Assembly: GCA_046116545.1 (NCBI GenBank)
Contig: CP175956.1
Location: 77,219 to 141,218, forward strand
Length of the DNA stretch: 64,000 nt
Direction: 5' to 3'
Origin: Candidatus Moraniibacteriota bacterium
Lineage (GTDB): Bacteria; Patescibacteriota; Minisyncoccia; Moranbacterales; GCA-2747515
In this document: in pieces, positions 23,540 to 45,508 of the stretch
How positions within the stretch are numbered: the first letter of the stretch is position 1
Layout of the letters: the number at the start of each line of letters is the position of its first letter
Position numbers and translations under genes: made by a program
The notes under the pieces: generated by a model
What the model saw: only the letters and a program-made list of their open reading frames with translations
Told to the model about the DNA's origin: nothing
Databases searched by the model: none

Positions 23540-23622
23540 AATTTTCCTATCATATTACCTGTCTTTGCGAGGAGCGTTTAGCGACGTGGCAATCTCGACA
23601 ATAATACCACTAAACTCTCTAA

Positions 23623-24765: not shown

Positions 24766-24820
24766 TTATTTATAGTCACTAAAAATATATCTATATCCAA
24801 TAATACTACAATCAACTCCA

Positions 24821-24926
24821 CGAAGCAATCTCAAAAAGAACACTCCTCTGTCTTTGCGTCAAGGTGAATTGAGCTCTGCTCAAGAGAGGGACCACCTGGG
24901 TGGAGGAGGTACGACGAAGCAATCTC
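24821..24926. repeat. Palindromic element family A, long variant (intergenic)
   Basis: cgaagcaatctc ... gtctttgcgtcaaggtgaattgagctctgctcaagagagggaccacctgggtggaggaggtacgacgaagcaatctc. ORF 24854..25048 is a read-through of this element. Confidence 0.8.
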
Positions 24927-24933
24927 CACAAGA

Positions 24934-26346
24934 CTATACAAAACAACTCTCCTTATCAAATCCCTTTCTCTCCCCTCTACCACTCTGTTCAATGAAAAAT
25001 GCATCATCCTTTTTATACGTATGCTCACCATGTCGCACACGGATATAATTATATCTATGTGTCGAATAAGCAGAATCACCATTCTCAATGATACGCCCCA
25101 CTAACTCAGCATCAATTGACTTTTTTATACTGGCAAACTTATATTTTTTCATGTCATCTGTTCGTATCAATATAGTTCCACCAGGCAGATGTGACCACCA
25201 ACGATCCTCCGCCTGCTCTCCAAACTCTATCATGACATCACTTTGCTCCAGATACGTAAAATTACCAGTCTTACCCACAATAGTAGCTTGTGAATAATGC
25301 AAGGCAAGATAGATATCATCTAAATGATTTGGACCATAATAATCATCATCATCCATTTTTGTAATATAATCTCCTGTGGCATTATCAACTCCAATATTTA
25401 AATTGTCTCCAAAAATTGTTAATGCATCTTTTTGTATAATCCTCACATCATAAGCCAAGTTCAATGTTTTAGATTTTATTTCATCAACATCAAACTCATC
25501 TCCATGCAATATCAAAATCAATTCTTTATTTGGATAATTTTGCAAAGAAATATTTTCAAATAATTGATTAATGTTCTCTGGACGCATAGTCGAAACAATG
25601 ATTGAAATTTTTTCCAACTTCTTTTTTTCAGACATGTTTATTTGTCCAAACTCAGTCATAACATATCGCCTCAAAACAATACTAAGTTTTTCTCTATAAA
25701 ACAAATCTTCACACTTCATTACAAATTCATCGGCATCATCATATGAACCAATGAAATTCATATATTCTTTTGGTATATATTTTTCCAAAGATGCTTTATC
25801 TCCCACTATCAAAGGCGCTCCCATTGCCATCAATTTCAATACACACCTAGTATAAGCATATTTTGTCTCAAATAATTCATCATCACAAATAACTACACTA
25901 CATAACTTCAATTTTTCTTTATCATATTTATCAGAAAAATCAACAAAATATTTTTTAATTTCGCTATAATTACTAAAATGCTTATCAAAAATACCTGTTT
26001 TAAATAAACTTTTCAGTTTCTTATTATTTCGCCTCTCCCCCACAATACAAATTTTTTCATTAGGATTATTTTGCCAATTGATTGGATTGTATTTCAATAT
26101 ATCTACAATACATTTGGCATTCTTCACATCATTTTCATCACACCCGCACATCTCATCAATTTTCTTACTACCATTTGCTACAAATATCAATTCTTTATTT
26201 TTATTTTCAAATAATATTTTACAGCAATTAACTGGCAGAGTAATGATTTTTACAGAACTTTTTACAGAACGAAAAAATAGCGCCTTTAGCCGCTCTTTTT
26301 TCGTTTCAAAAGTTAAAATATTTTCGATAATATTTAGATTTTTCAT
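24934..26346 (-). CDS. Two-domain protein with a C-terminal GT2-like glycosyltransferase domain
   Basis: C-terminal half has SIIVSTMRPENINQLFENISLQNY...LILHGDEFD and a DDD motif. Confidence 0.5.
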   Translation of the reverse strand: MKNLNIIENILTFETKKERLKALFFRSVKSSVKIITLPVNCCKILFENKNKELIFVANGSKKIDEMCGCDENDVKNAKCIVDILKYNPINWQNNPNEKICIVGERRNNKKLKSLFKTGIFDKHFSNYSEIKKYFVDFSDKYDKEKLKLCSVVICDDELFETKYAYTRCVLKLMAMGAPLIVGDKASLEKYIPKEYMNFIGSYDDADEFVMKCEDLFYREKLSIVLRRYVMTEFGQINMSEKKKLEKISIIVSTMRPENINQLFENISLQNYPNKELILILHGDEFDVDEIKSKTLNLAYDVRIIQKDALTIFGDNLNIGVDNATGDYITKMDDDDYYGPNHLDDIYLALHYSQATIVGKTGNFTYLEQSDVMIEFGEQAEDRWWSHLPGGTILIRTDDMKKYKFASIKKSIDAELVGRIIENGDSAYSTHRYNYIRVRHGEHTYKKDDAFFIEQSGRGERKGFDKESCFV

Positions 26347-26370
26347 TAATTTTATCTAAAACTATAAAAA

Positions 26371-28464
26371 TTAATTTATATCATCTGTATCCACAATCAT
26401 ATCAGTTGGAGCAAAGAATTTTCTATTTTTTTGAGGAAAATCAATATAACAATTTGAAATATTTATACTTTCATGCCATTTTTTATGAGATTTACTATAT
26501 TTTTTTCTAATTTCTGATATGCCATTATTTGTATTTGTGCCAGTGTCAGGATGATTAGTTAATGAACCTGCTTCATTTAAACAAAACATTGATACAAAAT
26601 ATTGATCTATGAATTCATCCTTATCCACAACAGCTCTTAATCTTCCTATAAATTCACTATCTGCACCATATTTAATATTATCCCAATATCCTATATATTT
26701 CTCTAAAAATGTTCTTTCTATTAAACAAGATATTGATGCTACTCTCATAACACCATCTTTTGAAAATGGATCTTCTTCTTGAATTTGAAACTCTCCTTGG
26801 TATGTCAACCTCAACATTCTAGCTAGTACAACCTTAGCATTTGTGTCTATGATATCTTCCATTTGTCTTTCAATTCTTTGAGGATGTGCCCAATCATCAG
26901 CATCATGTCCTGTAATGTAATCACCAGACACTTGTTTTAAAGCAATATTTTTTGATACATAAGGGCCAACATTTTGCTTATTATTTATAATTTTTATACG
27001 TTCATCATTATTAGCAAGAGATTGAATGATATCCCATGTATTATCAGAACTTTTATCATTAATGATAATAAGTTCTATATTTTTCCATGTCTGTGACAAC
27101 ACTGAGTCTACAGCCATCTCTATCGTATCCTCTGCATTGTATACTGGCATAATAACACTAACAACTGGACCATCTACTATATTTTTTTCTATTTTGCAAT
27201 GAAATCGATCAAATAAAGTATTTTTATTTTTTTTCAAAAATACTGGAGCTAACCTAAAACCTTCCAAATAAGCGTTAATATGTTTAAGCCATTTTTCCTC
27301 ATTACCTATATTCATATTTGCACTCAAAATATCAATTGCATCCCTATTTTTTTTTGATACATTTTTTTTTGCATGCAACAAAGATTCTTCTTTATCGTTG
27401 TCAATTTTAAATAATTTATATGCCCTTAATAATGCATCTTTAGTAGAAGGTTTTTCCGTTATTATTTTAAATAAATTAAATGGGAATGTTAATAGCTTAT
27501 ATGGCTTTCGCAAACTTCGAAAAAATAAGTCTCCCAAACGAAAACTCCTTGATTCTTTTAATTCCAAAACTTGCCTATTATTTTCCTGGATTTGTTTATT
27601 ATTTTCTTTTTTTTGATCTCGTAGTATACACCGTAATTCATCAATGTCATTTATATTTTCGAGATTTTTATTTCTATATTTTCCCTTGCCAAATTTTTGA
27701 TCTAATATTTTTTTATTACTTTTCTGCAAATCAACTATTTCATTCTCTGAATAAATTGATTTGAATGTTGTTCTATGATTATGAAAAATAAATACATCTT
27801 TAGCAAGAGCAACTCTCCAGCCAGCATTCATGGCACGATGATTAAAATCATTATCATCTCCAAAGCCAATGCCATATTCTTCAGCCAATAGACCTATGTC
27901 TTCAAATACTTCACTACGTATTAACGCACAAAAAAATGCTATGTAACGATAATCAGCAAGCACTTGTCTGTCATATCTTTTTGCAACTTTCTTTGCATAA
28001 CCTTCATTATCTTTTTTATATTCAGGAAAATCTGCAAACCCATCAACTTTATTTTTCAAATTATTTACAGATTGCCAACTGCCCTCAGTAGGAGAAACAA
28101 CAGTTCCCACTATACCCATTTTCTCGTCACTATTTAAAACTCTCGCCATTCTTTCAAGCCATCCAGCATATACTTCAACATCATTATTCAATAAAACAAT
28201 TTTTTTAACTTTATCATTTAAAGCAAGTTTCACACCTTGATTTGTAGCCTTTACAAAACCAAGATTTTTTTCATTAGAAATTAGAATATATGGTATATCA
28301 TTATTCATCAAAAAATCCTTAACTTCCTTCTTATCTTTTATATTAGATCCATTGTCTACCCAGATGATTTTATAATTCTCTGTATTCTTTGCCACGCTTT
28401 TAAAACAACGAATTGTATAATCCGCATTGTTCCAAGTTGGTGTAATAATATATATTGTAGACAT
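26371..28464 (-). CDS. Dual-domain glycosyltransferase: an N-terminal GT2 (paralog group 1) plus a C-terminal second GT2 domain
   Basis: N-terminus IITPTWNNADYTIRCFKSV...WVDNGS. C-terminal domain VSVIMPVYNAEDTIEMAVDSVLSQT...IIINDKSSDNT...HDADDW. Confidence 0.7.
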   Translation of the reverse strand: MSTIYIITPTWNNADYTIRCFKSVAKNTENYKIIWVDNGSNIKDKKEVKDFLMNNDIPYILISNEKNLGFVKATNQGVKLALNDKVKKIVLLNNDVEVYAGWLERMARVLNSDEKMGIVGTVVSPTEGSWQSVNNLKNKVDGFADFPEYKKDNEGYAKKVAKRYDRQVLADYRYIAFFCALIRSEVFEDIGLLAEEYGIGFGDDNDFNHRAMNAGWRVALAKDVFIFHNHRTTFKSIYSENEIVDLQKSNKKILDQKFGKGKYRNKNLENINDIDELRCILRDQKKENNKQIQENNRQVLELKESRSFRLGDLFFRSLRKPYKLLTFPFNLFKIITEKPSTKDALLRAYKLFKIDNDKEESLLHAKKNVSKKNRDAIDILSANMNIGNEEKWLKHINAYLEGFRLAPVFLKKNKNTLFDRFHCKIEKNIVDGPVVSVIMPVYNAEDTIEMAVDSVLSQTWKNIELIIINDKSSDNTWDIIQSLANNDERIKIINNKQNVGPYVSKNIALKQVSGDYITGHDADDWAHPQRIERQMEDIIDTNAKVVLARMLRLTYQGEFQIQEEDPFSKDGVMRVASISCLIERTFLEKYIGYWDNIKYGADSEFIGRLRAVVDKDEFIDQYFVSMFCLNEAGSLTNHPDTGTNTNNGISEIRKKYSKSHKKWHESINISNCYIDFPQKNRKFFAPTDMIVDTDDIN

Positions 28465-28483
28465 TGATTTATATTTCTAAAAT

Positions 28484-29419
28484 TTAAAGCCAGCTTTTAC
28501 CCTTCTTAAAAAGAAAATATTTAACATATCTAAATGTAAATTTAATACTTTCAACTAAACCATCGTTTTTGTATGTCACTTTTAAAAATTTTAAAAATTC
28601 TTCTAAATTTTTTGGATTTTTATCAATAAGATCTTTATATCTACCATGTTTCTTCTTGAGAATTTCTTGATTTTTTTTCCCCATTTCTTTAATTTCTTCT
28701 TCGGAAAAATGCTTTTTAAATGTCGTTCTATGATTATGAAAAATAAATACATCTTTTGCAAGGTATATTTTGTATCCTTTATCCAATGTTCTTGAACAAT
28801 AATCGTCATCATCACTAAATCCTAATCCATAATCCTCCGAAAGTATGCCAACCGTATTTAACAATTCTTTTTTTATTAATGTACAAAAAAATGCCACATT
28901 TGGATAAACCTCTATTGATTCTCCATTATATTTGTCTTTTATAATTTCTGAATATTTTTCTGGATTATCATTATAATTTGGAAGATTATCAAATTCGTCT
29001 GGCCTTTTTTTACGAAGATTGTTTATATCCTGCCATCCATGACTAGGTGAAGCCAATGGTCCTACAATTCCAATTTTTCTATTTTTAGTAAAAATAGAAA
29101 TCATGCGATTAAGCCAACCCCCATAAACTTCTGTGTCATTATTAAGTAAAACAACATAATCAACATTATCTTCAATTGCTTTTTTCATCCCTTGATTCGT
29201 GCCCTTTACAAAGCCCAGATTTACATTATTTAAAATTGCAATATGCGGCACATTGTTCTCTTTAAGAAAATTTTCAACCATTTCCACTTCTTCTTTTTCT
29301 GAACCATTATCCACCCAAACAATTTTATAATTCTCAGTGTTCTTTAATACACTTTCAAAACAACGTACAGTATAATCTGCATTGTTCCATGTTGGTGTAA
29401 TTATATATGTTTGACTCAT
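28484..29419 (-). CDS. GT2-family glycosyltransferase, paralog group 1
   Basis: YIITPTWNNADYTVRCFESV...VWVDNGS. Same architecture as 22589..23539. Confidence 0.7.
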   Translation of the reverse strand: MSQTYIITPTWNNADYTVRCFESVLKNTENYKIVWVDNGSEKEEVEMVENFLKENNVPHIAILNNVNLGFVKGTNQGMKKAIEDNVDYVVLLNNDTEVYGGWLNRMISIFTKNRKIGIVGPLASPSHGWQDINNLRKKRPDEFDNLPNYNDNPEKYSEIIKDKYNGESIEVYPNVAFFCTLIKKELLNTVGILSEDYGLGFSDDDDYCSRTLDKGYKIYLAKDVFIFHNHRTTFKKHFSEEEIKEMGKKNQEILKKKHGRYKDLIDKNPKNLEEFLKFLKVTYKNDGLVESIKFTFRYVKYFLFKKGKSWL

Positions 29420-29438: not shown

Positions 29439-30188
29439 TTATTTTATGTGACTACTATCATAAAGTTTTTTATCCCATTGAAATTGACTTTCTAGAATAT
29501 CAAAATCAACATTATCATTAATGGTAACAAGTACACGTATTTCAAAAAATACATCAATTTCATCAGGAAATATTATCGACATATCTTTTGGAGGGTGCTT
29601 TTTTGAATCATAATCATGTTCATCTATGTTGGCCATCAATGGATGTATTTTTTCATTAGTTGAATCACAAACTGTCTTAAATCCATACAACGCATATCTA
29701 GAAATTTTATTTGTATACAACATTTTCATAAGTAATTGATGAAATTCTATCGCAAGCATATGATTTGGATGTCCTGTCCAAAAAGACCAATAAAACTTCA
29801 ATCCTTTTGAAAACAAAAAACCATCAGCATCAAAAAATGGTTGCTGAATATAGAAAAAATCACGTGAATTATCTGCTGTAACATCTAATATATTTGCAAC
29901 ATCATCCATATTTGATATATGTTCAAGAAAGTGAGACATAATAGTAAATCTAACTTTATTTTCCAATTGTAAATCAATAACATTCGCGTGAAAAGCATTA
30001 TACCCAGCTTTTTTCATTATAAGAATTTTTGATTGATCAATGTCAATACCAAGTCCATTACCCGAATCTATACAAAAATATTTTTGTGCAAAATCAATAC
30101 TGCCACCCTTACTTGCTCCCAAATCAAGAAACTCTATATTATTTTCTTCAATATATTGATCAATGTCTTTATTTAAATCCATGCCCAT
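29439..30188 (-). CDS. Putative SAM-dependent methyltransferase (FkbM-like)
   Basis: Glycine-rich motif FLDLGASKGGS near the N-terminus. The family call is weak. Confidence 0.4.
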   Translation of the reverse strand: MGMDLNKDIDQYIEENNIEFLDLGASKGGSIDFAQKYFCIDSGNGLGIDIDQSKILIMKKAGYNAFHANVIDLQLENKVRFTIMSHFLEHISNMDDVANILDVTADNSRDFFYIQQPFFDADGFLFSKGLKFYWSFWTGHPNHMLAIEFHQLLMKMLYTNKISRYALYGFKTVCDSTNEKIHPLMANIDEHDYDSKKHPPKDMSIIFPDEIDVFFEIRVLVTINDNVDFDILESQFQWDKKLYDSSHIK

Positions 30189-30193
30189 TTATA

Positions 30194-30973
30194 TTATTTT
30201 TTAAAAAAATTCTGAAGTTGTAAGTATCTTCCTCTGATTTTCCAAAATTTTGACTTTTCCATTGTTGTAATTTTTTGCTTTAACATATTAATCTCATGAT
30301 TTTCACGTTGTCCTTCATGATGTGCAACAAAAAAATTTTCATTATCTCGTGCATTGGCATTGATACGATAATAATCTAAATTATTTTTCCAAATTACATA
30401 ATCAAAACTTAATTGATCACGTCTGCTATGTTTTTCAATTTCTCTCCACCAATCTTCATTTATTTTTTTTGTATTTTCTGCTAAATTTCTTCGAAAAACT
30501 ATTGGTGTTTCTGCTAACCCGTTATTCGGTGGATAGCCCTCTTTAATATAAGAAATGATTTGTTTTAACATATCAGCAGGATCATCTTTTGCTCTATAAA
30601 AACATTCAAGCATCTCATCATAAATACAATTTCTTAGTGAGTGTTGGTGTATTGCAACATCATGTTTCTTTAAATACTTATCAATAAGATATTCGATATC
30701 TTCAGTTCGAATCACAACTGATCCATCAATCCACACCACATATTCATATTCTGGAAGGAATTTATGTGTCAATATTTTACGCATCCTAGCATCAAGTGTA
30801 GGATCTGAAAAATAACGATTTTCTAGTCTTACATCAAAAACATCTGAATGAACTGATGCATCATCTGTAAAACAAATAAAATCACAACCTTTTATTTTTT
30901 TAGATGGCTCTTTTATTTTGTCATATCCATCACCAAATACTGCTGTATATATTGCTATTTTATTTTTATTCAT
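30194..30973 (-). CDS. Putative glycosyltransferase of the DUF616-like type
   Basis: N-terminus IAIYTAVFGDGYD...CDFICFTDD resembles the DUF616/TOD1 motif. The C-terminal tail SKFWKIRGRY is shared with the next gene. Confidence 0.4.
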   Translation of the reverse strand: MNKNKIAIYTAVFGDGYDKIKEPSKKIKGCDFICFTDDASVHSDVFDVRLENRYFSDPTLDARMRKILTHKFLPEYEYVVWIDGSVVIRTEDIEYLIDKYLKKHDVAIHQHSLRNCIYDEMLECFYRAKDDPADMLKQIISYIKEGYPPNNGLAETPIVFRRNLAENTKKINEDWWREIEKHSRRDQLSFDYVIWKNNLDYYRINANARDNENFFVAHHEGQRENHEINMLKQKITTMEKSKFWKIRGRYLQLQNFFKK

Positions 30974-30976: not shown

Positions 30977-31861
30977 CTATGCTTTAAACATCTTATTTTT
31001 ATACGCCACATAATGATTTCGTATCTTCCAAAACTTTGATTGTTTAATTATTTGTAATTGGTGATTTTTTTGTTTAATTTCTTGATTTTTTTGTTTAATT
31101 TCTTGATTTTTTTGTTTAATTTCTTGATTTGTTCGCTGTATTTGTGTATTTCTTTTTTTGTGGATCTTTTTTTCTATTTTCAGCATATTAAATGCAAAAC
31201 GATCAGCACGATTTGCATAATACCCTTTTATTTCATCTTGGTTATTAAAGAAAATATCTCGAGATCCATCTTTCATAAATAAAACTCCTAGACCATGCCA
31301 ATGATAAAATTCTATAGTATCATACCTTTCTTTTAATTCATTCCACAATTTATATACACCAAAATCATCTTTTTTTTCATGTATGTCATGAAATAATATA
31401 AGTCCATCTTCCCTAACTTTAGGTAACCATGACTCAAAGTCATGCTTCACTGCCTCATAAGTATGTAATCCATCAATATGTAATATATCTATACTACTAC
31501 TATCAAACTCTTTTAAAGCTTCATCAAAAAATTTACGATGCAACTTTACATCTATTTTGCTATAACTTGCTTTTACTTCTTTTTTAAACACATTAAATAC
31601 CTCATCTTTTTTTTCATATCCTGCTCTAGCATGTGCATCACCTTCCCAAGAATCTACTGCATGCATTTCTGTCCCAAAAGAGTCATCTTTAACTGCCTGA
31701 CACATTGCAAAAAAAGATGCTCCATAATGCGTTCCCAATTCAACAACTCTCTTAGGTTTTACATTTCTAATTAAATCATACGCAAAAAAAGTATGTCCCC
31801 ACCATGTACTTGGAGTTTTACTATCAAATTCAAACTTTGGTTTATAATATTTCCATTTCAT
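30977..31861 (-). CDS. Class I SAM-dependent methyltransferase (Methyltransf_24/CmcI-like) with a C-terminal coiled coil built from QEIKQKN heptad repeats
   Basis: Motifs VVELGTHYGASFFAMCQA, VDSWEGD and ILHIDGLHTYEAV...LILFHDI. The C-terminus has NQEIKQKNQEIKQKNQEIKQKN, then SKFWKIRNHY. Confidence 0.6.
   Translation of the reverse strand: MKWKYYKPKFEFDSKTPSTWWGHTFFAYDLIRNVKPKRVVELGTHYGASFFAMCQAVKDDSFGTEMHAVDSWEGDAHARAGYEKKDEVFNVFKKEVKASYSKIDVKLHRKFFDEALKEFDSSSIDILHIDGLHTYEAVKHDFESWLPKVREDGLILFHDIHEKKDDFGVYKLWNELKERYDTIEFYHWHGLGVLFMKDGSRDIFFNNQDEIKGYYANRADRFAFNMLKIEKKIHKKRNTQIQRTNQEIKQKNQEIKQKNQEIKQKNHQLQIIKQSKFWKIRNHYVAYKNKMFKA
31058..31141. repeat. 21-bp tandem repeat (ttgtttaatttcttgatt ttt), 3-4 copies. 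It encodes the QEIKQKN heptads on the minus strand.
   Basis: Exact direct repeats read from the sequence. The alternate-frame ORF 31058..31282 is an artefact. Confidence 0.85.
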
Positions 31862-31865: not shown

Positions 31866-32744
31866 TTAGTTTACTATAATTATATCATATATTTCAGTAT
31901 GTCTAGGTAAAAAATTCAACTCTTTAATTAATTCATATTCTTTCAATAATTCATCTTTTCTATATAATAATACTCTACAATCTTCTTCAAGAACTCCAGG
32001 ATCAGCAGGATTATTAATTAAACCCGTACTATGAGATCTCTTCCTTCCGCTACTAGTTCCTAAAACTAAATAGTCTTTATTTAAACTCAACCCTCTAGTA
32101 TATCCAACTTTTAATTTTAGCACTTCTGTTTTATTAATTTTTACACTTCTAGACGATGACTCACAATAATACACATTTCTATTTTTAATAAAAACAGAAT
32201 GCGGATGATAAATTTTCTCTATTTTTTTTATTTTCTTGCTTATATTATAAATATACCCATCAGCTGCAGAACTCCATTTTTTTGACTTCTTCATCCCAAA
32301 AGCAGAAACATAAATATCATTATCATATAAAAATATTGAATTTATATGATGAGTATCAATTTCCCCCTTAGAGCCCTCTGGTGACCATTCCTTTCCAATT
32401 AAATCAACTTGCCTACCTTCCTTGTCAAAAGCATACTTAAAAACACTATCATTTCCAGTTGAGACAATATATATACTATCATCTTTTACAGCAATCGAAT
32501 GTGGTGCTAAAAGCTCTACTAACTTTTCATTAAAAATTATTTTTTTGGTTTTTTTGTCAATAATAAATAATCCTTCGTCAACATCTTTTGAAACTGCATA
32601 GAAAAAATCATTATCTTGAGTTATGCCAGTTATGCCTCCACTCTCACCAATAAGGTATTCTTCTTTGCCAGAATCTAAATCCACTAAAAGTAGATTTTTA
32701 CTAAAATTATTTGATTGTTTACAAAAGGATGTCAAAATCTTCAT
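31866..32744 (-). CDS. Hypothetical protein, possibly a beta-propeller-like fold
   Basis: 292 aa with repeated beta-rich segments. No family motif recognised. Confidence 0.35.
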   Translation of the reverse strand: MKILTSFCKQSNNFSKNLLLVDLDSGKEEYLIGESGGITGITQDNDFFYAVSKDVDEGLFIIDKKTKKIIFNEKLVELLAPHSIAVKDDSIYIVSTGNDSVFKYAFDKEGRQVDLIGKEWSPEGSKGEIDTHHINSIFLYDNDIYVSAFGMKKSKKWSSAADGYIYNISKKIKKIEKIYHPHSVFIKNRNVYYCESSSRSVKINKTEVLKLKVGYTRGLSLNKDYLVLGTSSGRKRSHSTGLINNPADPGVLEEDCRVLLYRKDELLKEYELIKELNFLPRHTEIYDIIIVN

Positions 32745-32764: not shown

Positions 32765-33454
32765 TTACATCTTTATATTTTTTCTCTGTGCGCGTAATTC
32801 CAAAGCCTTCCTATAAATTTGCATATCTTTCGCATGAAATCTTTCCACATTCTTTCTAAACTCATCCGAAATATCCTCACTATTCTTTCTATTAACACGC
32901 TCATGATAAACTGACATTTCAACCTTTAAAAAAAATTTTGAAAAATATTTCACATCTTCTTCATAAAATTCAGTAATACCAATAAAATCAAAGTCTTCTA
33001 GCGGAAATTTCCATAAATATTTTGAATAAACATTTCTCAACTCATTGCTAAAGCAGAAATTCTCTAATGACCAATTTTCTTCAATTACTTTCTTGTGTAA
33101 ATTAAAGGATTCATTATAATTATAAGACTTCTGCCAATAATTATAATGTGAAATTAATCGATCTACTGGATTACGCATCCATGTTACAAATTTAACATCT
33201 TCTCCTTTTCTGAATTTAATGGGAAGATATTTAAATGGAAGAAAATGACCGTGAATACATTGAATATTCTGATATTTATTTGAAAAAATATAATTATTAA
33301 AATATGCAATATTTGTCATTCCATGTCTTATTAGTGAAGAGTGCTGCAATGGTGCATCTTTATGATCAATTAATAACTGATTACCAAAATAATCATGTAA
33401 AGATTTTCTAAAGCTACTTCCCGCAGTTTTTGGTAAGTGTAGTGATATTAACAT
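32765..33454 (-). CDS. PAPS-dependent sulfotransferase (Sulfotransfer_2 / HS2ST-like)
   Basis: N-terminal 5'-phosphosulfate-binding-like motif LHLPKTAGSSF (compare PKTASTSF in 2-O-sulfotransferases). An internal IHGHF is present. Immediately adjacent to cysQ and cysC. Confidence 0.6.
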   Translation of the reverse strand: MLISLHLPKTAGSSFRKSLHDYFGNQLLIDHKDAPLQHSSLIRHGMTNIAYFNNYIFSNKYQNIQCIHGHFLPFKYLPIKFRKGEDVKFVTWMRNPVDRLISHYNYWQKSYNYNESFNLHKKVIEENWSLENFCFSNELRNVYSKYLWKFPLEDFDFIGITEFYEEDVKYFSKFFLKVEMSVYHERVNRKNSEDISDEFRKNVERFHAKDMQIYRKALELRAQRKNIKM

Positions 33455-33482
33455 TATTTTTAAAAATTAAAAAATATAATTA

Positions 33483-34283
33483 TTATTTATTTATAAATAC
33501 TCTATTACTTACAATATACCCATTTAATAACATCGTTTCTTTGTTATTATATTTAATTGTACTATTCTGCATATCACAAACATATCCACCCGCTTCCTGT
33601 ATAATGATATCACTTGCGCAAATATCCCACAAGCCACTTTTATTACTTGAATTAATATACAATTCTGCATCACCTACTGCAACTTTACATATTTTAATAC
33701 CAGCTGAACCCATAGGAGCCTGTTTCATATTATTTTTCTCTGCAATTTCTTGTTCATAATCTCCCAAGTGATTTCGACTTACTAGAATTCTGCCATTTTT
33801 CATTGGTTTTTTGCTAGTTGAAATTCTTTTAGGAAGATTCCTGCCTTCGTAGGAATGACAATAGAAAAATGCGCCTTTATTTTTCTCGGCATAATATAAT
33901 TCATTTAATACTGGTGCATACACTATACCAAAAATTGACTCACCCTCCTTATTTACTAATCCAATCATTATTGAAAATTCTCCTGTTTTTTGTATGAAAT
34001 CAGATGTCCCATCTAGTGGATCAATAATCCACACAAAGTTTGCTTTTTTTCTATTTTCAAAATCATCCTCAATCTCTTCACTTAATATTGGATAATTATA
34101 TCTTGATAATTTATCCATCAAAAAATTATTCACTGCAATATCTGCCTCCGTTACAGGTGTTTTGTTTTGTTTTTGTTCTATGGTGTATTCTTTATCATAA
34201 AACTGCATGGCGATGTTACCTGCTTCAATTGCTATTTTTATTATTTCTTGGATATTTATATTGTAATTTTGCATGATTATCAT
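33483..34283 (-). CDS. cysQ: Inositol monophosphatase family protein, probably 3'(2'),5'-bisphosphate nucleotidase (CysQ-like PAP phosphatase)
   Basis: Motifs EEIEDDF...WIIDPLDGTSDF, IVYAPVLNELYYA and GSAGIKICKVAVGDAELY. Genomic context is cysC and a sulfotransferase. Confidence 0.7.
   Translation of the reverse strand: MIIMQNYNINIQEIIKIAIEAGNIAMQFYDKEYTIEQKQNKTPVTEADIAVNNFLMDKLSRYNYPILSEEIEDDFENRKKANFVWIIDPLDGTSDFIQKTGEFSIMIGLVNKEGESIFGIVYAPVLNELYYAEKNKGAFFYCHSYEGRNLPKRISTSKKPMKNGRILVSRNHLGDYEQEIAEKNNMKQAPMGSAGIKICKVAVGDAELYINSSNKSGLWDICASDIIIQEAGGYVCDMQNSTIKYNNKETMLLNGYIVSNRVFINK
33836..33860. repeat. Family-D hairpin (gattcctgccttcgtaggaatgaca) embedded in-frame in the cysQ-like CDS
   Basis: Differs by 1 nt from the copy at 45483..45508 downstream of another gene. 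Encodes HSYEGRN within the CDS. Confidence 0.6.
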
Positions 34284-34294
34284 TACTCAAACTA

Positions 34295-34320
34295 GATTCC
34301 CGCCTACGCGGGAATGACAC
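34295..34320. repeat. Family-D hairpin (gattcccgcctacgcgggaatgaca) in the 3' intergenic spacer
   Basis: Short palindrome ending in ggaatgaca. Terminator-like position downstream of cysC. Confidence 0.55.
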
Positions 34321-34328
34321 TAAAAAAA

Positions 34329-34853
34329 TTATAATTGTTTGTCTATGTAACTTACTATTTTTTGAACGCTTTCTTCTACTGTTTCCTTTTCCGTATTCAC
34401 TATTATTTCTGAATTAACTGGTTTTTCAAATGGGTCTTGTACTCCTGTGAAATCCATTATTTCTCCTTTTTCTGCTTTAGCATACATACCCTTCACATCC
34501 CTCCTTTTACATTCTTCTACACTACACTCTACATACACCTCTATAAAATTTTCACATAAACCTCTCGTAAAATTACGCATTTTTTGATATGGTGATACAA
34601 ATGCTGATACCACATTTACACCATTATCAGATAACATCTGTGCAATATATGATAATCGTTCTATATTTTTATTTCTATCCTCTTTGCTGAAATCTAAATC
34701 ATTACTAATTGTTTCACGTACAATATCACCATCTAATCTTTGAATTGATAAATACTTCTCTTGAAAATATTTTTCAATTTCTTTTGATAGTGTTGTTTTT
34801 CCGCTACAAGGTAATCCAGTAAACCAAATTACTAATCCTTTGTCTTTTTTCAT
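34329..34853 (-). CDS. cysC: Adenylylsulfate (APS) kinase
   Basis: GLVIWFTGLPCSGKTTLSKEI (P-loop), LDGDIVRETISNDLDFSKEDRNKNIERL, and VNVVSAFVSPY. Canonical APS kinase motifs. Confidence 0.9.
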   Translation of the reverse strand: MKKDKGLVIWFTGLPCSGKTTLSKEIEKYFQEKYLSIQRLDGDIVRETISNDLDFSKEDRNKNIERLSYIAQMLSDNGVNVVSAFVSPYQKMRNFTRGLCENFIEVYVECSVEECKRRDVKGMYAKAEKGEIMDFTGVQDPFEKPVNSEIIVNTEKETVEESVQKIVSYIDKQL

Positions 34854-34870: not shown

Positions 34871-34897
34871 AGATTCTCGCCTTCCACGAGAATTACA
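34871..34897. repeat. Family-D-like hairpin downstream of wzt
   Basis: agattctcgccttccacgagaattaca. Confidence 0.45.
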
Positions 34898-34902: not shown

Positions 34903-36318
34903 TTATTTTTTGCTCCATTCGTGTTCAATGCGCATTATTCCTACTCCAGACCCTTTTTGTTTTTTAATTTTGATAATATGATTATTTAGTTCTTTTGTTG
35001 AATTAGAATCCACAATATCATTTTGTCCACTTTTATTTTCAAATAAAACAGCTTTTATATATATTTCCCCCGTGTTAAACATCGTGTTTTTAAAATAAAT
35101 TATAAATACATTTCTATCTTTTTGCCAACTGCAATTAAAATTATCTACATCTGTATTATTACCACACAAAAATACATTTGTTTCATTGTCAAAAATTTGC
35201 ACTGCTTGCACAAGATTATGCTTAATTTTTGAAACTTGCACTTCAATCTCTACAAAAAAATCATCACCCCATGTAATTTCAGTTAATTTATTTCTATCTA
35301 TATCAAAAACCTGTATATCTGTAATTATATTTTCATTTTTCACTTGTCTTTTCATACCACCTCTTAGTGATTTCTCATGTTCCTGCTCTTCTTTTTCAAT
35401 CCGTTCCTTTTTTTCTAATTCTTCACGTTGGTCTTCAGACATATTTTTAATAATATATTCATCACATACATCATTCACATCACCAGAACCAAGTAATTCA
35501 CCCTTATGTAATAATAAAGCTCTATCACAATATTCTCGCACTGTTGCCATACTGTGGGTTACTAATATTACAGTTTTTCCCCTCTCTTTATATCCTCTGA
35601 AAATATCAAGACACTTCTCTTGAAATCTACTATCCCCCACAGCCAATACCTCATCCATAATAAGTATTTCACGATCTGCATGAATTGACACACTGAAAGC
35701 GAGACGAGCCTTCATGCCACTTGAATAATTTTTTAATTGTTCGTCTATAAATTTTTCTAATTCTGCAAATGCGACTATTTCATCAAACTTTTCATCAATT
35801 TGTTTTTTTGTTAAACCTAGTACTGTCGCATTGAGATATATATTGTCTCGTCCTGATAATTCTGGATTAAAACCTATTCCTAGCTCAAGGAATGGTGATA
35901 TCATACCATTTACCTCAATTGATCCAGATGTTGGTTGATAAACACCTGCTAAAATCTTTAACAATGTAGACTTACCTGCCCCATTATGTCCTATAATTCC
36001 CAAAAATTCTCCTTTTTTTACTTCTACTGAAATATCTTTGAGAGCGTAGAATTCTTCATATGTATTTTTTTTCAAAGAATTCACAAAAGCACTTTTCATT
36101 GAATCAATTTTTTTGTGAGGAATTTTAAAGATTTTTGAGACGTTTTTTACTTTTACTGCTATTTCTTTATCTGGCTGAGATTGCTTCGTCGTACCTTCTC
36201 CACCCAGGTGGTCCCTCTCTTGAACAGAGTTCAATTCACCTTGACGCAAAGATGCATCTTTTTTTACTTTGATGCTTTTATCTTTTTTATTTGATTGTTG
36301 GTTATTTTTTTTATTCAT
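34903..36318 (-). CDS. wzt: ABC transporter ATP-binding protein of the Wzt/TagH/KpsT polysaccharide-export type, with a C-terminal substrate-binding (Wzt_C-like) domain. It carries an in-frame 84-nt family-A insertion near the N-terminus.
   Basis: Walker A GHNGAGKST, signature YSSGMKARLAF and Walker B ILIMDEVLAVGD. An extra ~180-aa beta-rich C-terminal domain is present. The N-terminal leader contains SLRQGELNSVQERDHLGGEGTTKQSQP, encoded by repeat A. Confidence 0.8.
   Translation of the reverse strand: MNKKNNQQSNKKDKSIKVKKDASLRQGELNSVQERDHLGGEGTTKQSQPDKEIAVKVKNVSKIFKIPHKKIDSMKSAFVNSLKKNTYEEFYALKDISVEVKKGEFLGIIGHNGAGKSTLLKILAGVYQPTSGSIEVNGMISPFLELGIGFNPELSGRDNIYLNATVLGLTKKQIDEKFDEIVAFAELEKFIDEQLKNYSSGMKARLAFSVSIHADREILIMDEVLAVGDSRFQEKCLDIFRGYKERGKTVILVTHSMATVREYCDRALLLHKGELLGSGDVNDVCDEYIIKNMSEDQREELEKKERIEKEEQEHEKSLRGGMKRQVKNENIITDIQVFDIDRNKLTEITWGDDFFVEIEVQVSKIKHNLVQAVQIFDNETNVFLCGNNTDVDNFNCSWQKDRNVFIIYFKNTMFNTGEIYIKAVLFENKSGQNDIVDSNSTKELNNHIIKIKKQKGSGVGIMRIEHEWSKK
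36177..36251. repeat. Palindromic element family A, long unit II, inserted in-frame in wzt
   Basis: gagattgcttcgtcgtaccttctccacccaggtggtccctctcttgaacagagttcaattcaccttgacgcaaagat. This is the reverse complement of the intergenic copy at 24850..24926. Confidence 0.85.
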
Positions 36319-36328: not shown

Positions 36329-37156
36329 TTATATCTTTTCTGCTACATTTGTGATTAATTTCCTGTATGCCCAAATACTAAATATGAAAAATGCAATAAT
36401 TACACTTATAAACATTGCTATTTGACTCAAATCTGGATAATGATTGTTAAACATTGATTCTTTTGTGAAATGGATGATAAATGCCACTGGATTCAGAAGA
36501 ATAAACTTATGTGTCCACACTGGTAACATTGTCAATGGATATAGAATTGGCAATATATAAAACATAACTCTCAATGCAACTTGCCAGATCATTGCCACAT
36601 CACGAAGATACAAAAGTAATGGCGCTGTAATAAGTGAAAATGACAATATTAGTATATATAACGCTACTGCAAAAGTAATTGAAAGTATGATAGATGCAAT
36701 AGACGGCATAAATTGAAATCCTATGAAAAATGCAATGATGACAATTATATTCATCAGAAATACCATCCCTGTATTTATAGTTGATGCCAGAATAATTGAC
36801 CACCTTGGTACATAAATTTTTGTTACTAATTGTGCTTTACTCTTAAGCGCATTCATACCCGCATTAGTTCCTTCTGAAAAAAATGTAAAAAGCATCAATG
36901 CAACTAGTAATTGCAAAGAATAATTTTCTATTCCACCACCACGAGCACCTGTACCAAACACACCGGAAAAAACAGCTGCCAAAACCAAAAACAAAAGAAG
37001 TGGCTGTAATACCGCCCATACATAACCCAAAACAGATCCTTGATAACGAAGTTTAAAATCCGTTTTAGCAAGCATCCAGATTAGCTCTTTATAATTTTCG
37101 TGTTCTTGTAGTGATTCTTTAATTATTTTCATAAATAAATAGTACAATAAAAACAC
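36329..37156 (-). CDS. wzm: ABC-2 type transporter permease (Wzm/TagG-like)
   Basis: 275 aa with 6 TM helices. Sits immediately upstream of the Wzt ATPase, with overlapping or adjacent arrangement. Confidence 0.75.
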   Translation of the reverse strand: MFLLYYLFMKIIKESLQEHENYKELIWMLAKTDFKLRYQGSVLGYVWAVLQPLLLFLVLAAVFSGVFGTGARGGGIENYSLQLLVALMLFTFFSEGTNAGMNALKSKAQLVTKIYVPRWSIILASTINTGMVFLMNIIVIIAFFIGFQFMPSIASIILSITFAVALYILILSFSLITAPLLLYLRDVAMIWQVALRVMFYILPILYPLTMLPVWTHKFILLNPVAFIIHFTKESMFNNHYPDLSQIAMFISVIIAFFIFSIWAYRKLITNVAEKI

Positions 37157-45420: not shown

Positions 45421-45482
45421 TATTAAACTTACACAAAATAGATATTACATAATATTATAGGATTTTCTCAAACTTTTCGAAA

Positions 45483-45508
45483 GATTCCTGCCTTCGCAGG
45501 AATGACAT
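45483..45508. repeat. Family-D hairpin immediately downstream of the GT gene (terminator-like)
   Basis: gattcctgccttcgcaggaatgaca. Confidence 0.6.

What the first reader, a model, noticed from the sequence alone, without database searches (positions are those of the whole stretch)
32765..34853. Complete PAPS sulfation module (sulfotransferase, PAP phosphatase, APS kinase) embedded in the polysaccharide export locus, with ATP sulfurylase nearby
Four genes together form a full sulfation pathway. They are a Sulfotransfer_2-like enzyme (32765-33454), a CysQ-like PAP phosphatase (33483-34283), the APS kinase CysC (34329-34853), and a Sat-type ATP sulfurylase 14 kb away (48093-49214). The pathway runs sulfate->APS->PAPS->sulfated acceptor + PAP->AMP. 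No assimilatory genes (cysH, cysJI) are present. The module sits directly beside Wzm/Wzt and many glycosyltransferases. The likeliest product is therefore a sulfated surface glycan. That is rare in bacteria and, to my knowledge, not characterised in small-genome lineages of this kind.
Basis: partly seen in the sequence, partly recalled or inferred. Interest (0 to 1): 0.72.

Follow-up and report, generated by a model that had tools for sequence, protein, structure and literature searches.

The report
Glycan sulfation genes in a CPR bacterium
A tiny-genome (Candidate Phyla Radiation) bacterium carries, inside its surface-sugar export operon, all the genes needed to make activated sulfate, attach it to a sugar chain and clear the by-product; this very likely yields a sulfated surface glycan, and an uncharacterised protein (DUF4915) turns out to be the most conserved partner of those genes.

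The parts
36329..37156 (-). Wzm, ABC-2 type permease of the glycan exporter
   Evidence: Pfam ABC2_membrane 50 bits. Weak NCBIfam hits to KpsM and to the galactan Wzm. 59-65% identical to Wzm of L086 and L088.
34903..36318 (-). Wzt, ABC exporter ATPase (471 aa) with a C-terminal CBM-like tail and a ~55-aa K/Q-rich N-terminal extension
   Evidence: ABC_tran 82 bits. Wzt_C 24.6 bits, E 2.7e-5, below the gathering score of 30.4. NCBIfam teichoic-acid/galactan exporter ATPase models score 186-230 bits. 54% identical over the full length to Wzt of L088, which also has a sub-threshold Wzt_C hit.
34873..34893 (.). Palindromic hairpin element (variant) in the wzt-cysC spacer
   Evidence: ATTCTCGCCTTCCACGAGAAT.
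34329..34853 (-). CysC, APS kinase (APS -> PAPS)
   Evidence: APS_kinase 178.8 bits; TIGR00455 190.8 bits > 138.7. P-loop, LDGD, FVSP and KGMY motifs present. 62-78% identical to CysC in CPR loci L086-L091.
34294..34317 (.). Perfect 24-nt GC-rich palindrome (ATTCCC-N8-GGGAAT type) in the cysC-cysQ spacer
   Evidence: Three copies with <=3 mismatches in the window against 0 expected by chance.
33483..34283 (-). CysQ-type 3'(2'),5'-bisphosphate nucleotidase (PAP -> AMP + Pi); likely true start at 34274
   Evidence: Inositol_P 168.5 bits. TIGR01331 210.3 bits (cutoff 228.8). DPLDGT and WDxxA motifs present. The nearest homologs are named CysQ in Moranbacteria/Parcubacteria MAGs, and natural CysC-CysQ fusions exist (P0146, P0173).
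32765..33454 (-). Cytoplasmic PAPS-dependent sulfotransferase of an uncharacterised family, with an HS 2-O/6-O-sulfotransferase-like fold
31866..32744 (-). DUF4915/TIGR03032 six-bladed beta-propeller; the most conserved neighbour of the PAPS genes; function unknown (candidate cap-installing or terminator module)
30977..31861 (-). Methyltransf_24 (TylF-like) SAM methyltransferase with a C-terminal heptad-repeat coiled coil and an SKFWKIR tail; terminator-like architecture
   Evidence: Methyltransf_24 97.2 bits. 21-nt x 3.3 perfect tandem repeat at 31062-31130 encoding NQEIKQK heptads. Tail motif. Always follows DUF4915 in relatives.
30194..30973 (-). TOD1/MUCI70-like glycosyltransferase-like protein with a short coiled coil and the same SKFWKIR tail
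   Evidence: PF04765 67.8 bits. Tail motif.
29439..30188 (-). 249-aa protein, weak FtsJ-like methyltransferase signal; part of the same tight array
   Evidence: FtsJ E 0.007, sub-threshold. Gaps to its neighbours are 5 nt and 19 nt.
22589..29419 (-). Array of five GT2-family glycosyltransferase genes (candidate polymerase components)
   Evidence: Glycos_transf_2 hits of 45.8-193.9 bits.
48093..49214 (-). Sat-type homo-oligomeric ATP sulfurylase (sulfate -> APS); likely true start at 49175
   Evidence: ATP-sulfurylase 252.8 bits plus PUA_2 105.6 bits. NF003166 382.9 bits (cutoff 387). QTRNPPHRSH and GRDHAG motifs present. 47-52% identical to the Sat that sits inside the cassette in L087, L091 and L097.

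Best explanation
This is a dedicated PAPS supply-and-recycle module wired into an ABC-transporter-dependent (Wzm/Wzt) glycan assembly operon of a Candidatus Moraniibacteriota (CPR/Patescibacteria) bacterium.

Proposed pathway:
1. Sat adenylylates sulfate to APS.
2. CysC phosphorylates APS to PAPS.
3. A soluble cytoplasmic sulfotransferase with a heparan-sulfate 2-O/6-O-sulfotransferase-like fold transfers sulfate to the lipid-linked glycan while it is still on the cytoplasmic face.
4. CysQ hydrolyses the inhibitory by-product PAP to AMP.
5. Wzm/Wzt then export the finished, sulfated polymer.

Shown here: the gene content, the family memberships, the sulfotransferase fold and motifs, the operon-like arrangement, and its recurrence in related CPR genomes.

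Inferred: the acceptor is the glycan made by this locus; the position of the sulfate; and the absence of any assimilatory use of PAPS.

The comparative data add that the evolutionarily conserved core is Wzt(CBM-like)-PAPS genes-DUF4915-coiled-coil methyltransferase. Sulfation is therefore probably tied to the chain-end (terminator) machinery, and the 229-aa sulfotransferase is an extra, lineage-specific addition.
For: - Family and motif evidence for CysC, CysQ and Sat.
- No TM segment, so the enzyme acts in the cytoplasm, where PAPS is made.
- Gaps of 3-49 nt from wzm through 13 downstream genes.
- Relatives of this sulfotransferase sit next to Wzm/Wzt(CBM) in Saccharibacteria (the genes overlap by 13 nt), Oceanimonas and others. 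36 of 80 loci also carry further Sulfotransfer_3/1-type genes.
- CPR relatives place CysQ/CysC/Sat in glycan loci. L086: Wzt-CysC::CysQ fusion-Sulfotransfer_3. L087: CysQ-CysC-Sat-Wzx-Sulfotransfer_1/3. L088-L098: Wzt-CysC(±CysQ±Sat)-DUF4915-MT24.
- No PAPS_reduct or sulfite-reductase domain in the window or in the annotated flanks of those loci.
- Chemical precedent for the same logic in Cobetia marina (PMC11766843). PAP inhibits sulfotransferases, so CysQ promotes sulfation (PMC3141025).
Against: - No biochemical or chemical data exist for this organism.
- The sulfotransferase is below the Pfam gathering score and belongs to a family with no characterised member.
- Only 64 kb of a ~1.29 Mb genome was visible, so cysH/cysIJ elsewhere cannot be excluded.
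- Sat is 13 kb away, separated by unrelated genes.
- A sibling assembly encodes a truncated CysQ (P0143, 157 aa, one A fewer in an A6 run), so part of the module might be variable or decaying.
- CysQ also removes PAP produced by phosphopantetheinyl transfer, so its presence alone is not diagnostic.
- Most relatives with the PAPS genes lack this sulfotransferase, so it may not be the main PAPS consumer.
Confidence: 0.75

Rival explanations
1. Sulfate is specifically a chain-terminating cap (alone or with an O-methyl group). The conserved unit DUF4915 + coiled-coil methyltransferase is the terminator, functionally analogous to the WbdD kinase-methyltransferase. DUF4915 would be the enzyme that uses PAPS (or APS), and the CBM-like tail of Wzt would read the capped end before export. 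This refines the best explanation rather than excluding it.
For: - Seven independent loci have CysC (±CysQ, ±Sat) immediately upstream of DUF4915, followed by MT24: window, L088, L089, L090, L091, L097 and L101.
- No classical sulfotransferase is detectable in L088-L091 or L095-L098 by family HMM, phmmer or a PSB/PB motif scan.
- In Gallionellaceae, DUF4915 sits between wzt(Wzt_C) and wzm.
- Long-form DUF4915 proteins are a propeller plus ~100 aa of coiled coil plus an SxSW[RK]xxAPLR tail. A coiled-coil ruler on the terminator and a CBM on Wzt are the hallmarks of capped systems (PMC11231755).
- The L086 sulfotransferase itself carries a coiled coil and an SKFWKLR tail.
- DUF4915 has invariant His, Arg, Asp and Glu residues at the starts of blade-inner strands.
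- Aeromonas salmonicida has Wzt followed by a sulfotransferase-domain gene, yet no sulfate in the repeat unit (PMC4483657).
Against: - There is no sequence link to any sulfotransferase family.
- All known PAPS-dependent sulfotransferases have a different fold (own knowledge).
- The Wzt tail is only a sub-threshold Wzt_C match and is not conserved among the cassettes.
- A sulfotransferase could be encoded elsewhere in those genomes.
Confidence: 0.3
2. The sulfotransferase acts on a non-glycan acceptor (lipid, protein tyrosine/serine or a small molecule), and its position in the glycan operon is incidental.
For: - The family is uncharacterised.
- Only about 13 of 83 homolog loci have a clear Wzt within 10 kb.
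Against: - The best structural and profile matches are carbohydrate sulfotransferases.
- Spacing within the Wzm/Wzt-GT array is tight.
- The gene overlaps wzt in Saccharibacteria.
- It co-occurs with further sulfotransferases and GTs in 28 of 51 loci of >=15 kb.
Confidence: 0.12
3. Sat/CysC/CysQ serve assimilatory sulfate reduction (cysteine synthesis through PAPS reductase), and the adjacency to the sulfotransferase is coincidental.
For: - The same three enzymes are used for assimilation in enterobacteria and others (established knowledge).
- The rest of the genome was not inspected.
Against: - No cysH/cysI/cysJ/cysK domain in 64 kb, nor in +/-10 kb of six related CPR loci.
- In at least nine independent CPR loci the PAPS genes are embedded in glycan loci.
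- CysC-CysQ fusions lie next to a sulfotransferase.
- CPR genomes are generally poor in amino-acid biosynthesis (own knowledge, not tested here).
Confidence: 0.05
4. The module is decaying or non-functional in this lineage.
For: - A 100%-identical but truncated CysQ (P0143, 157 aa) exists on an NCBI contig of 63,952 bp. The difference is one A in an A6 run.
- The intact 266-aa product is not on record in the protein collection.
- A palindromic element copy lies inside cysQ.
Against: - In the window, all four ORFs are intact with complete catalytic motifs.
- The in-frame element-encoded peptide CHS(Y/C)EGRNLP is also present in an intact 71%-identical homolog (P0121).
- Homopolymer differences are common assembly errors.
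Confidence: 0.05

Closest known systems
Cobetia marina KMM 1449 sulfated capsule gene cluster (PMC11766843)
   Same: PAPS-synthesis genes with cysQ, plus sulfotransferase genes, lie inside an ABC-transporter-dependent polysaccharide cluster. The product there was shown chemically to be sulfated (Rha2S).
   Different: Cobetia uses heterodimeric CysD/CysNC, a Kps-type (group 2/3 capsule) exporter and a linked sulfate permease, in a Gammaproteobacterium that also assimilates sulfate. Here the parts are a monofunctional Sat, separate CysC and CysQ, a Wzm/Wzt exporter with a CBM-like tail, a different sulfotransferase family and DUF4915, in a CPR bacterium.
Heparan-sulfate 2-O- and 6-O-sulfotransferases (PDB 3f5f/4ndz, 5t03; Pfam Sulfotransfer_2)
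   Same: Best sequence-profile and structural matches. Shared 5'-PSB and 3'-PB motifs, and an HGH that aligns with the HGH of 2OST (H140/H142 by my count; the catalytic role is from my own knowledge of the 2OST literature).
   Different: Only 15-22% identity. The window protein is 229 aa and soluble, with no Golgi membrane anchor, and the bacterial family has no characterised member. It is below Pfam gathering scores.
NodP/NodQ-NodH (rhizobial Nod-factor sulfation), RaxP/RaxQ-RaxST (Xanthomonas) and the M. tuberculosis CysDNC/CysQ-Stf0 sulfation branch (own knowledge; the Mtb branch and CysQ role are in PMC3141025)
   Same: Dedicated or branch-specific PAPS synthesis is coupled genetically to a sulfotransferase that decorates a secreted or surface molecule. 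CysQ removes PAP to keep sulfotransferases active.
   Different: The acceptors are a lipo-chitooligosaccharide, a peptide tyrosine and trehalose glycolipids, not a Wzm/Wzt-exported polymer. The ATP sulfurylase is of the CysDN type.
Polymerase-terminator O-antigen systems: E. coli O9a/K. pneumoniae O3 WbdD + Wzt-CBM, K. pneumoniae O12/O4/O7 (PMC11231755, PMC3482155)
   Same: A Wzm/Wzt exporter whose ATPase carries a C-terminal CBM-like domain. An adjacent modifying enzyme (methyltransferase) carries a coiled coil. The gene order wzm-wzt-terminator-GTs is the same.
   Different: Known caps are methyl, methyl-phosphate and Kdo. No sulfate cap is described in the papers I could read. Here PAPS genes and DUF4915 occupy the position of the WbdD kinase. 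The Wzt_C match is sub-threshold.
Aeromonas salmonicida wb(salmo) cluster (PMC4483657)
   Same: Wzt is immediately followed by a small sulfotransferase-domain protein and a WbbB-like multi-GT. The same layout occurs in Oceanimonas locus L001.
   Different: That sulfotransferase is a Sulfotransfer_1-type protein, not the family found here. There are no linked PAPS genes. The authors found no sulfate in the repeat unit and left the function open.

Membership tests
PAPS-dependent sulfotransferase superfamily (Pfam Sulfotransfer_1/2/3 clan) | 5'-phosphosulfate-binding loop (PKxGxT/S) | tested here: met
   LHLPKTAGSS at residues 5-14. H6, P8, K9, T10, G12 and S14 are invariant in 40 homologs. The loop aligns to PKTAST of 2OST and KTGGTT of 6OST.
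PAPS-dependent sulfotransferase superfamily (Pfam Sulfotransfer_1/2/3 clan) | 3'-phosphate-binding motif (RxPxxRxxS) | tested here: met
   RNPVDRLISH at residues 94-103. R94, P96, R99, S102 and H103 are invariant. The motif aligns to RDPIERLVSY of 2OST.
PAPS-dependent sulfotransferase superfamily (Pfam Sulfotransfer_1/2/3 clan) | Sulfotransferase alpha/beta fold | tested here: met
PAPS-dependent sulfotransferase superfamily (Pfam Sulfotransfer_1/2/3 clan) | Score above a curated Pfam/NCBIfam threshold | tested here: not met
   PF00685 scores 21.6 bits against a cutoff of 22, and there is no NCBIfam hit. 22 of 40 homologs hit PF03567 and 14 of 40 hit PF00685 at E<=0.01.
PAPS-dependent sulfotransferase superfamily (Pfam Sulfotransfer_1/2/3 clan) | Catalytic base near the acceptor site | tested here: inconclusive
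   Invariant C66-x-H68-G-H70 aligns with the HGH of chicken 2OST. The catalytic role of those histidines comes from my recollection of the 2OST literature.
PAPS-dependent sulfotransferase superfamily (Pfam Sulfotransfer_1/2/3 clan) | PAPS-dependent sulfuryl transfer to an acceptor | not testable with these tools
   This needs an enzyme assay.
APS kinase (CysC, TIGR00455/PF01583) | Curated model above threshold, plus the P-loop and APS-binding motifs | tested here: met
   TIGR00455 scores 190.8 against a cutoff of 138.7; PF01583 scores 178.8. GLPCSGKTT, LDGDIVR, FVSP and KGMY are present.
CysQ 3'(2'),5'-bisphosphate nucleotidase (TIGR01331) | Equivalog model above threshold | tested here: not met
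   The score is 210.3 bits against a cutoff of 228.8. This is still the best of all inositol-phosphatase-family models by a wide margin; the next model (NF008182, a second CysQ equivalog) scores 148.7 and HisN scores 112.4.
CysQ 3'(2'),5'-bisphosphate nucleotidase (TIGR01331) | Li-sensitive phosphatase metal-binding motifs, and functional linkage to PAPS metabolism | tested here: met
   DPLDGT, WDICA and SEE are present. Natural CysC-CysQ fusion proteins occur in Parcubacteria (P0146, P0173) at 48-59% identity.
Sat-type ATP sulfurylase (PF01747 + PUA_2; TIGR00339) | Domain architecture and active-site motifs | tested here: met
   PF01747 scores 252.8 and PF14306 scores 105.6. QTRNPPHRSH and GRDHAG are present. 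TIGR00339 (319.0 vs 322.95) and NF003166 (382.9 vs 387) fall marginally below their cutoffs.
Capped polymerase-terminator ABC-transporter glycan systems (WbdD/Wzt-CBM type) | Wzm/Wzt exporter | tested here: met
Capped polymerase-terminator ABC-transporter glycan systems (WbdD/Wzt-CBM type) | Carbohydrate-binding module on the C-terminus of Wzt | tested here: inconclusive
   Wzt_C scores 24.6 bits, E 2.7e-5, below the gathering score of 30.4. The orthologous L088 tail scores 25.1 bits. Relatives L084, L089, L090 and L100 carry precomputed PF14524 hits. No structure was predicted for the tail.
Capped polymerase-terminator ABC-transporter glycan systems (WbdD/Wzt-CBM type) | Terminating enzyme carrying a coiled-coil ruler | tested here: met
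   The MT24 protein has a C-terminal NQEIKQK heptad array and an SKFWKIR tail. Long-form DUF4915 proteins have a ~100-aa coiled coil. The hallmark is described in PMC11231755. Coiled coils were read from the sequence, not run through a predictor.
Capped polymerase-terminator ABC-transporter glycan systems (WbdD/Wzt-CBM type) | Defined non-reducing-end cap that is required for export | not testable with these tools
   This needs glycan chemistry and genetics.
Arylsulfate sulfotransferase (ASST/Cpz4-type beta-propeller), considered for DUF4915 | Specific sequence or structural similarity beyond the generic propeller fold | tested here: not met

The most novel reading that the evidence does not exclude
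DUF4915/TIGR03032 is a previously unrecognised chain-terminating enzyme of ABC-transporter-dependent glycan assembly. It would install a sulfate-containing cap, using PAPS or APS made by the adjacent CysC/Sat. That would make it a non-canonical (beta-propeller) sulfotransferase and a new cap chemistry read by Wzt carbohydrate-binding modules. It would be widespread in CPR bacteria and present in some Proteobacteria.
Probability: 0.22. Interest if true: 0.85.

Novelty: new member of a known kind. Interest (0 to 1): 0.58.

Why it matters
CPR/Patescibacteria are mostly uncultivated, ultra-small, probably episymbiotic cells, and their surface chemistry is essentially unknown. A genome of about 1.3 Mb that still keeps four genes solely to sulfate a surface polymer implies that the negative charge matters, perhaps for host attachment, phage or predator evasion, or cation binding. 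The recurrence of the same investment across Moranbacteria and Parcubacteria strengthens that inference.

Practically, this gives a testable prediction: sulfated, possibly methyl-capped glycans on CPR cells.

It also gives a concrete functional lead for an orphan family. DUF4915 is genetically welded to APS kinase and to CBM-bearing Wzt exporters. That could extend the known repertoire of glycan chain-terminating chemistries beyond methyl, methyl-phosphate and Kdo.

Tried and rejected
1. Whole-genome check for cysH/cysIJ. This was not possible. The source genome is not among the genome contigs representatives, and look-ups return at most +/-10 kb.
2. Exact look-up of the 266-aa CysQ found nothing on record. 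Only a truncated 157-aa version (P0143) is held.
3. Using the Wzt C-terminal tail to track cap identity. The tail is detectably similar only to L088 (36%) and L091 (29%), and to none of the 83 sulfotransferase-family loci, so no inference was possible.
4. Promoter and terminator scans gave counts at shuffle expectation (127 vs 128; 6 vs 3.9) and are uninformative in this AT-rich DNA.
5. DUF4915 as an ASST-like sulfotransferase was not supported by fold ranking or sequence profiles. It is kept only as a context-based hypothesis.
6. The apparent hits of the L086 sulfotransferase to methyltransferase ORFs in L088-L099 and the window most likely come from the shared coiled-coil/SKFWK tail rather than sulfotransferase domains; I inferred this from the shared tails and did not inspect the aligned regions.
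7. A WbdD-like reading, in which the 'CysC' is a glycan kinase making a methyl-phosphate cap, was rejected. The protein passes the APS-kinase equivalog threshold, and Sat and CysQ co-occur in the cassette.
8. The first metagenome scan with the 40-sequence DUF4915 alignment failed for lack of a conserved stretch. It was repeated with 19 closer sequences.
9. The Mann, Kimber and Whitfield 2019 census of chain-termination chemistries could not be retrieved. I therefore cannot say whether sulfate caps were predicted there.
10. Literature searches for CPR/Patescibacteria plus sulfotransferase or APS kinase found nothing relevant.


Full report
**1. Observation**

Three of the family assignments are unambiguous.
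- The 174-aa protein is an APS kinase. Pfam APS_kinase scores 178.8 bits, and NCBIfam TIGR00455 scores 190.8 bits against a cutoff of 138.7. It has the P-loop GLPCSGKTT and the LDGD, FVSP and KGMY motifs.
- The 266-aa protein is an inositol-monophosphatase-family enzyme. Its best model by far is CysQ: TIGR01331 at 210.3 bits (just under the equivalog cutoff of 228.8), with the second CysQ model NF008182 next at 148.7 and HisN at 112.4. It has the DPLDGT and WDxxA motifs.
- The 373-aa protein is a Sat-type ATP sulfurylase. PUA_2 scores 105.6 and ATP-sulfurylase scores 252.8 bits, and the QTRNPPHRSH and GRDHAG motifs are present.

The likely true starts are 49175 for sat (M14 of the longest ORF) and 34274 for cysQ (MQNYN..., as in homologs).

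**2. The sulfotransferase**

This was the weak link. Pfam gives only Sulfotransfer_1 at 21.6 bits (cutoff 22), not Sulfotransfer_2, and NCBIfam gives nothing. Five independent lines now support the call.
1. Against all PDB sequences, the only hits (E<=10) are sulfotransferases. The best is heparan-sulfate 6-O-sulfotransferase, matched in three collinear pieces that cover the 5'-PSB loop, the 3'-PB motif and the C-terminal helices.
2. The protein belongs to a large, almost wholly unannotated family: 625 database clusters, and 360 genome hits across many phyla. In a 40-sequence alignment, the PAPS-binding residues are invariant (H6, P8, K9, T10, G12, S14; R94, P96, R99, S102, H103), as is a C66-x-H68-G-H70 motif.
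3. A profile of that alignment hits HS 2-O-sulfotransferase (E 8.1e-7) and HS 6-O-sulfotransferase (E 3.9e-5). The family HGH aligns to the HGH of 2OST. By my count from that alignment these are H140/H142; their catalytic role is from my memory of the 2OST literature.
4. 22 of 40 members hit PF03567 and 14 of 40 hit PF00685.

The protein has no hydrophobic segment, so it works in the cytoplasm.

**3. Surroundings**

The source is a Candidatus Moraniibacteriota MAG (Patescibacteria/CPR). The sulfotransferase is 100% identical to ACKUBY_00565 on a contig of 1,286,331 bp.

On the minus strand, the array reads:
- Wzm (36329-37156)
- Wzt (34903-36318; ABC_tran plus a sub-threshold Wzt_C tail)
- CysC, CysQ and the sulfotransferase
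- DUF4915 (31866-32744)
- a Methyltransf_24 enzyme with a coiled coil (30977-31861)
- a TOD1/MUCI70-like GT-like protein (30194-30973)
- a 249-aa protein
- five GT2 genes (22589-29419)

Gaps are 3-49 nt from wzm down to 24934. Sat lies 13.2 kb upstream of cysC on the same strand. A GH114/DUF5648 giant protein, a PGAP1-like giant protein, a GT1 and an AAA_14/DUF4143 ATPase lie between them. None of the 49 window ORFs scanned carries a PAPS-reductase or sulfite-reductase domain. Consensus promoter and terminator scans are uninformative in this AT-rich DNA.

**4. Comparative evidence: the sulfotransferase family**

In other phyla, the family recurs beside glycan export genes.
- In Oceanimonas it lies 3 kb from Wzt(Wzt_C), a Sulfotransfer_1 gene and a 1143-aa multi-GT.
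- In a Saccharibacteria MAG the order is Wzm-Wzt(Wzt_C)-ST-pyruvyltransferase-GT2, with the sulfotransferase gene overlapping wzt by 13 nt.
- About 13 of 83 loci have a clear Wzt within 10 kb.
- 36 of 80 loci, and 28 of the 51 that are >=15 kb, contain further Sulfotransfer_3/1-type genes.

These are therefore typically multi-sulfotransferase glycan loci. Among those 83 loci, CysC was found near the sulfotransferase only once, and CysQ and Sat never. Those organisms presumably draw PAPS from general metabolism.

**5. Comparative evidence: the PAPS genes in CPR**

The closest CysQ relatives (60-72% identity) come from Moranbacteria/Parcubacteria MAGs and include natural CysC-CysQ fusions (P0146, P0173). 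Their contexts are as follows.
- L086 (Parcubacteria): Wzm...Wzt-CysC::CysQ-Sulfotransfer_3 (31.7 bits, with a coiled coil and an SKFWKLR tail)-GT2s.
- L087 (Moranbacteria GW2011_GWE2_35_2-): CysQ-CysC-Sat-Wzx flippase-Sulfotransfer_3/1 (108.5 bits)-GTs.
- L088: Wzt-CysC-CysQ-DUF4915-MT24/GT fusion. Its Wzt is 54% and its DUF4915 is 48% identical to the window proteins.
- L089 and L090: Wzt(Wzt_C)-CysC-DUF4915-MT24.
- L091: Wzt-CysC-CysQ-Sat-DUF4915-MT24. L097: Wzt-CysC-Sat-DUF4915-MT24.
- L101 (GC 53%, not CPR-like): APS kinase-DUF4915-MT24.

After removing duplicates, seven independent loci place an APS kinase zero to two genes upstream of DUF4915. No PAPS reductase appears in any annotated flank. 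This settles two things. The PAPS module is a recurrent, glycan-linked trait of this CPR clade rather than an oddity of one genome. And the 229-aa sulfotransferase is an accessory, since different relatives use different sulfotransferase families or none that I can recognise. A family HMM, phmmer and a PSB/PB motif scan were all negative in L088-L091 and L095-L098.

**6. DUF4915**

Its model is a confident six-bladed beta-propeller (pLDDT 92.0). Invariant His, Asp, Asn, Arg and Glu residues (H82, D99, H133, N135, H182, R217, R234, E284) fall at or just before the first strand of successive blades, which suggests a central pocket.

Context is the only functional clue, and it is strong.
- In a Gallionellaceae MAG, DUF4915 sits between wzt(Wzt_C) and wzm, overlapping wzt by 8 nt.
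- In Dyella and another gammaproteobacterial MAG, it lies next to Wzm and the A1-type sulfotransferase.
- The long proteobacterial forms are a propeller plus ~100 residues of coiled coil plus a C-terminal SxSW[RK]xxAPLR motif.

A coiled-coil 'ruler' on the terminating enzyme, together with a CBM on Wzt, are the hallmarks of capped polymerase-terminator systems (PMC11231755). In the CPR cassettes, the coiled coil and an analogous SKFWKIR tail sit on the methyltransferase that always follows DUF4915.

**7. Mechanism**

Best-supported reading, confidence about 0.75: Sat and CysC make PAPS. The cytoplasmic sulfotransferase, and possibly DUF4915, transfers sulfate to the polyprenol-linked glycan before export. 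This is chemically coherent, because in Wzm/Wzt pathways the polymer is finished on the cytoplasmic face, where PAPS is available. CysQ removes PAP, which inhibits sulfotransferases (PMC3141025). Wzm/Wzt then export the product.

Refinement, confidence about 0.3: sulfate, perhaps together with an O-methyl group, forms the non-reducing-end cap. It would be installed by a DUF4915/MT24 terminator unit and read by the Wzt tail. The Aeromonas salmonicida cluster is compatible with a once-per-chain cap, since it has Wzt followed by a sulfotransferase-domain gene yet no sulfate was found in the repeat unit (PMC4483657).

Against the refinement: the Wzt tail is only a sub-threshold Wzt_C match and diverges even among cassettes. 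DUF4915 also has no demonstrable link to any sulfotransferase.

Rivals are judged unlikely for the reasons given in their entries: assimilatory use of PAPS 0.05, a non-glycan acceptor 0.12, and a decaying module 0.05.

**8. Comparison with what is known, and novelty**

A PAPS operon (cysNC, cysD, cysQ, permease) plus sulfotransferases embedded in an ABC-transporter polysaccharide cluster is documented, with chemical proof of sulfation, in Cobetia marina (PMC11766843). Dedicated PAPS-plus-sulfotransferase units are classical in rhizobia, Xanthomonas and mycobacteria (own knowledge; PMC3141025 for Mtb). As worded, the finding is therefore a new member of a known kind.

What is new is the lineage: no CPR report turned up. 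The parts list is also new: a monofunctional Sat, an uncharacterised HS2ST-like family, and CysC-CysQ fusions in relatives. Above all, the conserved coupling of PAPS genes to DUF4915, a coiled-coil methyltransferase and a CBM-like Wzt is new. I could not retrieve the 2019 census of chain-termination chemistries, so I cannot exclude that sulfate caps were predicted there.

**9. Verdict**

Interest is moderate (0.58). This is a solid, testable prediction of sulfated surface glycans in CPR bacteria, plus an unexpected and well-replicated genomic lead on an orphan protein family. The lead would be of high interest if DUF4915 proves to be a sulfate-cap-installing terminator (probability about 0.22).

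Noticed in passing
window 34294-34317, 45482-45505, 62376-62399 (+), variant 34873-34893, degenerate in-frame copy 33837-33856 inside cysQ: A family of ~24-nt GC-rich palindromes, GTCATTCC(C/T)GCG(T/A)AGGC(G/A)GGAATCT (ATTCCC-N8-GGGAAT hairpins), in otherwise AT-rich DNA. There are 3 matches with <=3 mismatches against 0 expected by chance. Two copies bracket cysC. One degenerate copy lies in frame inside cysQ and encodes CHSYEGRNLP. The same peptide (CHSCEGRNLP) occurs in a 71%-identical homolog (P0121) but not in P0122 or P0146. The elements resemble REP/RPE-like repeats that can insert into coding sequence.
   Followed up: partly
window ~33806-33811 (A6 run in cysQ, minus strand ...AGCAAAAAACCAATG...): P0143, on an NCBI contig of 63,952 bp, is 100% identical to the first 154 residues from MQNYN and then ends ...RISTSKNQ*. 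That is exactly what one fewer A in this run would produce. The intact 266-aa product is not on record in the protein collection. This is either a homopolymer assembly error or real on/off variation of cysQ.
   Followed up: partly
window 31062-31130 (inside the methyltransferase gene 30977-31861): A perfect 21-nt x 3.3 tandem repeat encodes NQEIKQK heptads in the coiled coil of the terminator-like methyltransferase. Copy-number change would alter the coiled-coil length, which in WbdD-type rulers sets glycan chain length.
   Followed up: no
window 30194-30973 and 30977-31861; L086 11304-12248; P0277-P0281, P0287: Unrelated catalytic domains share a C-terminal tail motif after a coiled coil. The tail is SKFWK(I/L)R..Y on the CPR methyltransferase, the TOD1-like GT and the L086 sulfotransferase. 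It is SxSW[RK]xxAPLR on proteobacterial DUF4915. It is probably a common docking or membrane-association signal for enzymes of the assembly complex.
   Followed up: partly
window 18334-19842 (+), 20605-22467 (+), 37227-41255 (-); L086, L088, L089: Three large proteins end in tandem DUF5648 domains. They are fused respectively to SpoIID, to a subtilase S8, and to GH114 plus PD40/SBBP propeller repeats (1342 aa). DUF5648 proteins also flank the related CPR sulfation loci. They may be cell-surface proteins that bind or remodel the same glycan.
   Followed up: no
window 911-8781: Four consecutive large PMT_2 (GT-C, ArnT/PMT-like) membrane glycosyltransferase paralogs of 575-747 aa. Polytopic membrane proteins of 560-700 aa without Pfam hits also follow the sulfation cassettes in L086-L089. 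They are candidate extracytoplasmic transferases or ligases for the exported glycan.
   Followed up: no
window 46739-47989; L090 4240-7424: An AAA_14/DUF4143 ATPase gene separates the GT1 gene from sat in the window. In L090, two such genes lie just upstream of wzt, and each is followed by a short ORF with 58% identity to a ~70-residue stretch of Wzt (5622-5831 and 7221-7415). This looks like insertion with partial target duplication, and may explain why sat is displaced from the cassette here.
   Followed up: no
window 62641-63537: The GrpE gene in the hrcA-grpE-dnaK heat-shock cluster encodes a fusion with an N-terminal NUDIX hydrolase domain (NUDIX 46.8 bits, GrpE 129.1 bits).
   Followed up: no
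window 12237-12539: A small stand-alone GIY-YIG domain ORF (100 aa, 64.3 bits) lies between a GT4 gene and an LPG_synthase_TM gene. It could be a homing-endonuclease-like or URI-domain remnant.
   Followed up: no
L086 10001-11311; P0173: Natural single-polypeptide CysC-CysQ fusions (APS kinase N-terminal, PAP phosphatase C-terminal; 436-441 aa) occur in Parcubacteria. I am not aware of this fusion being described. It links PAPS synthesis physically to PAP removal.
   Followed up: partly
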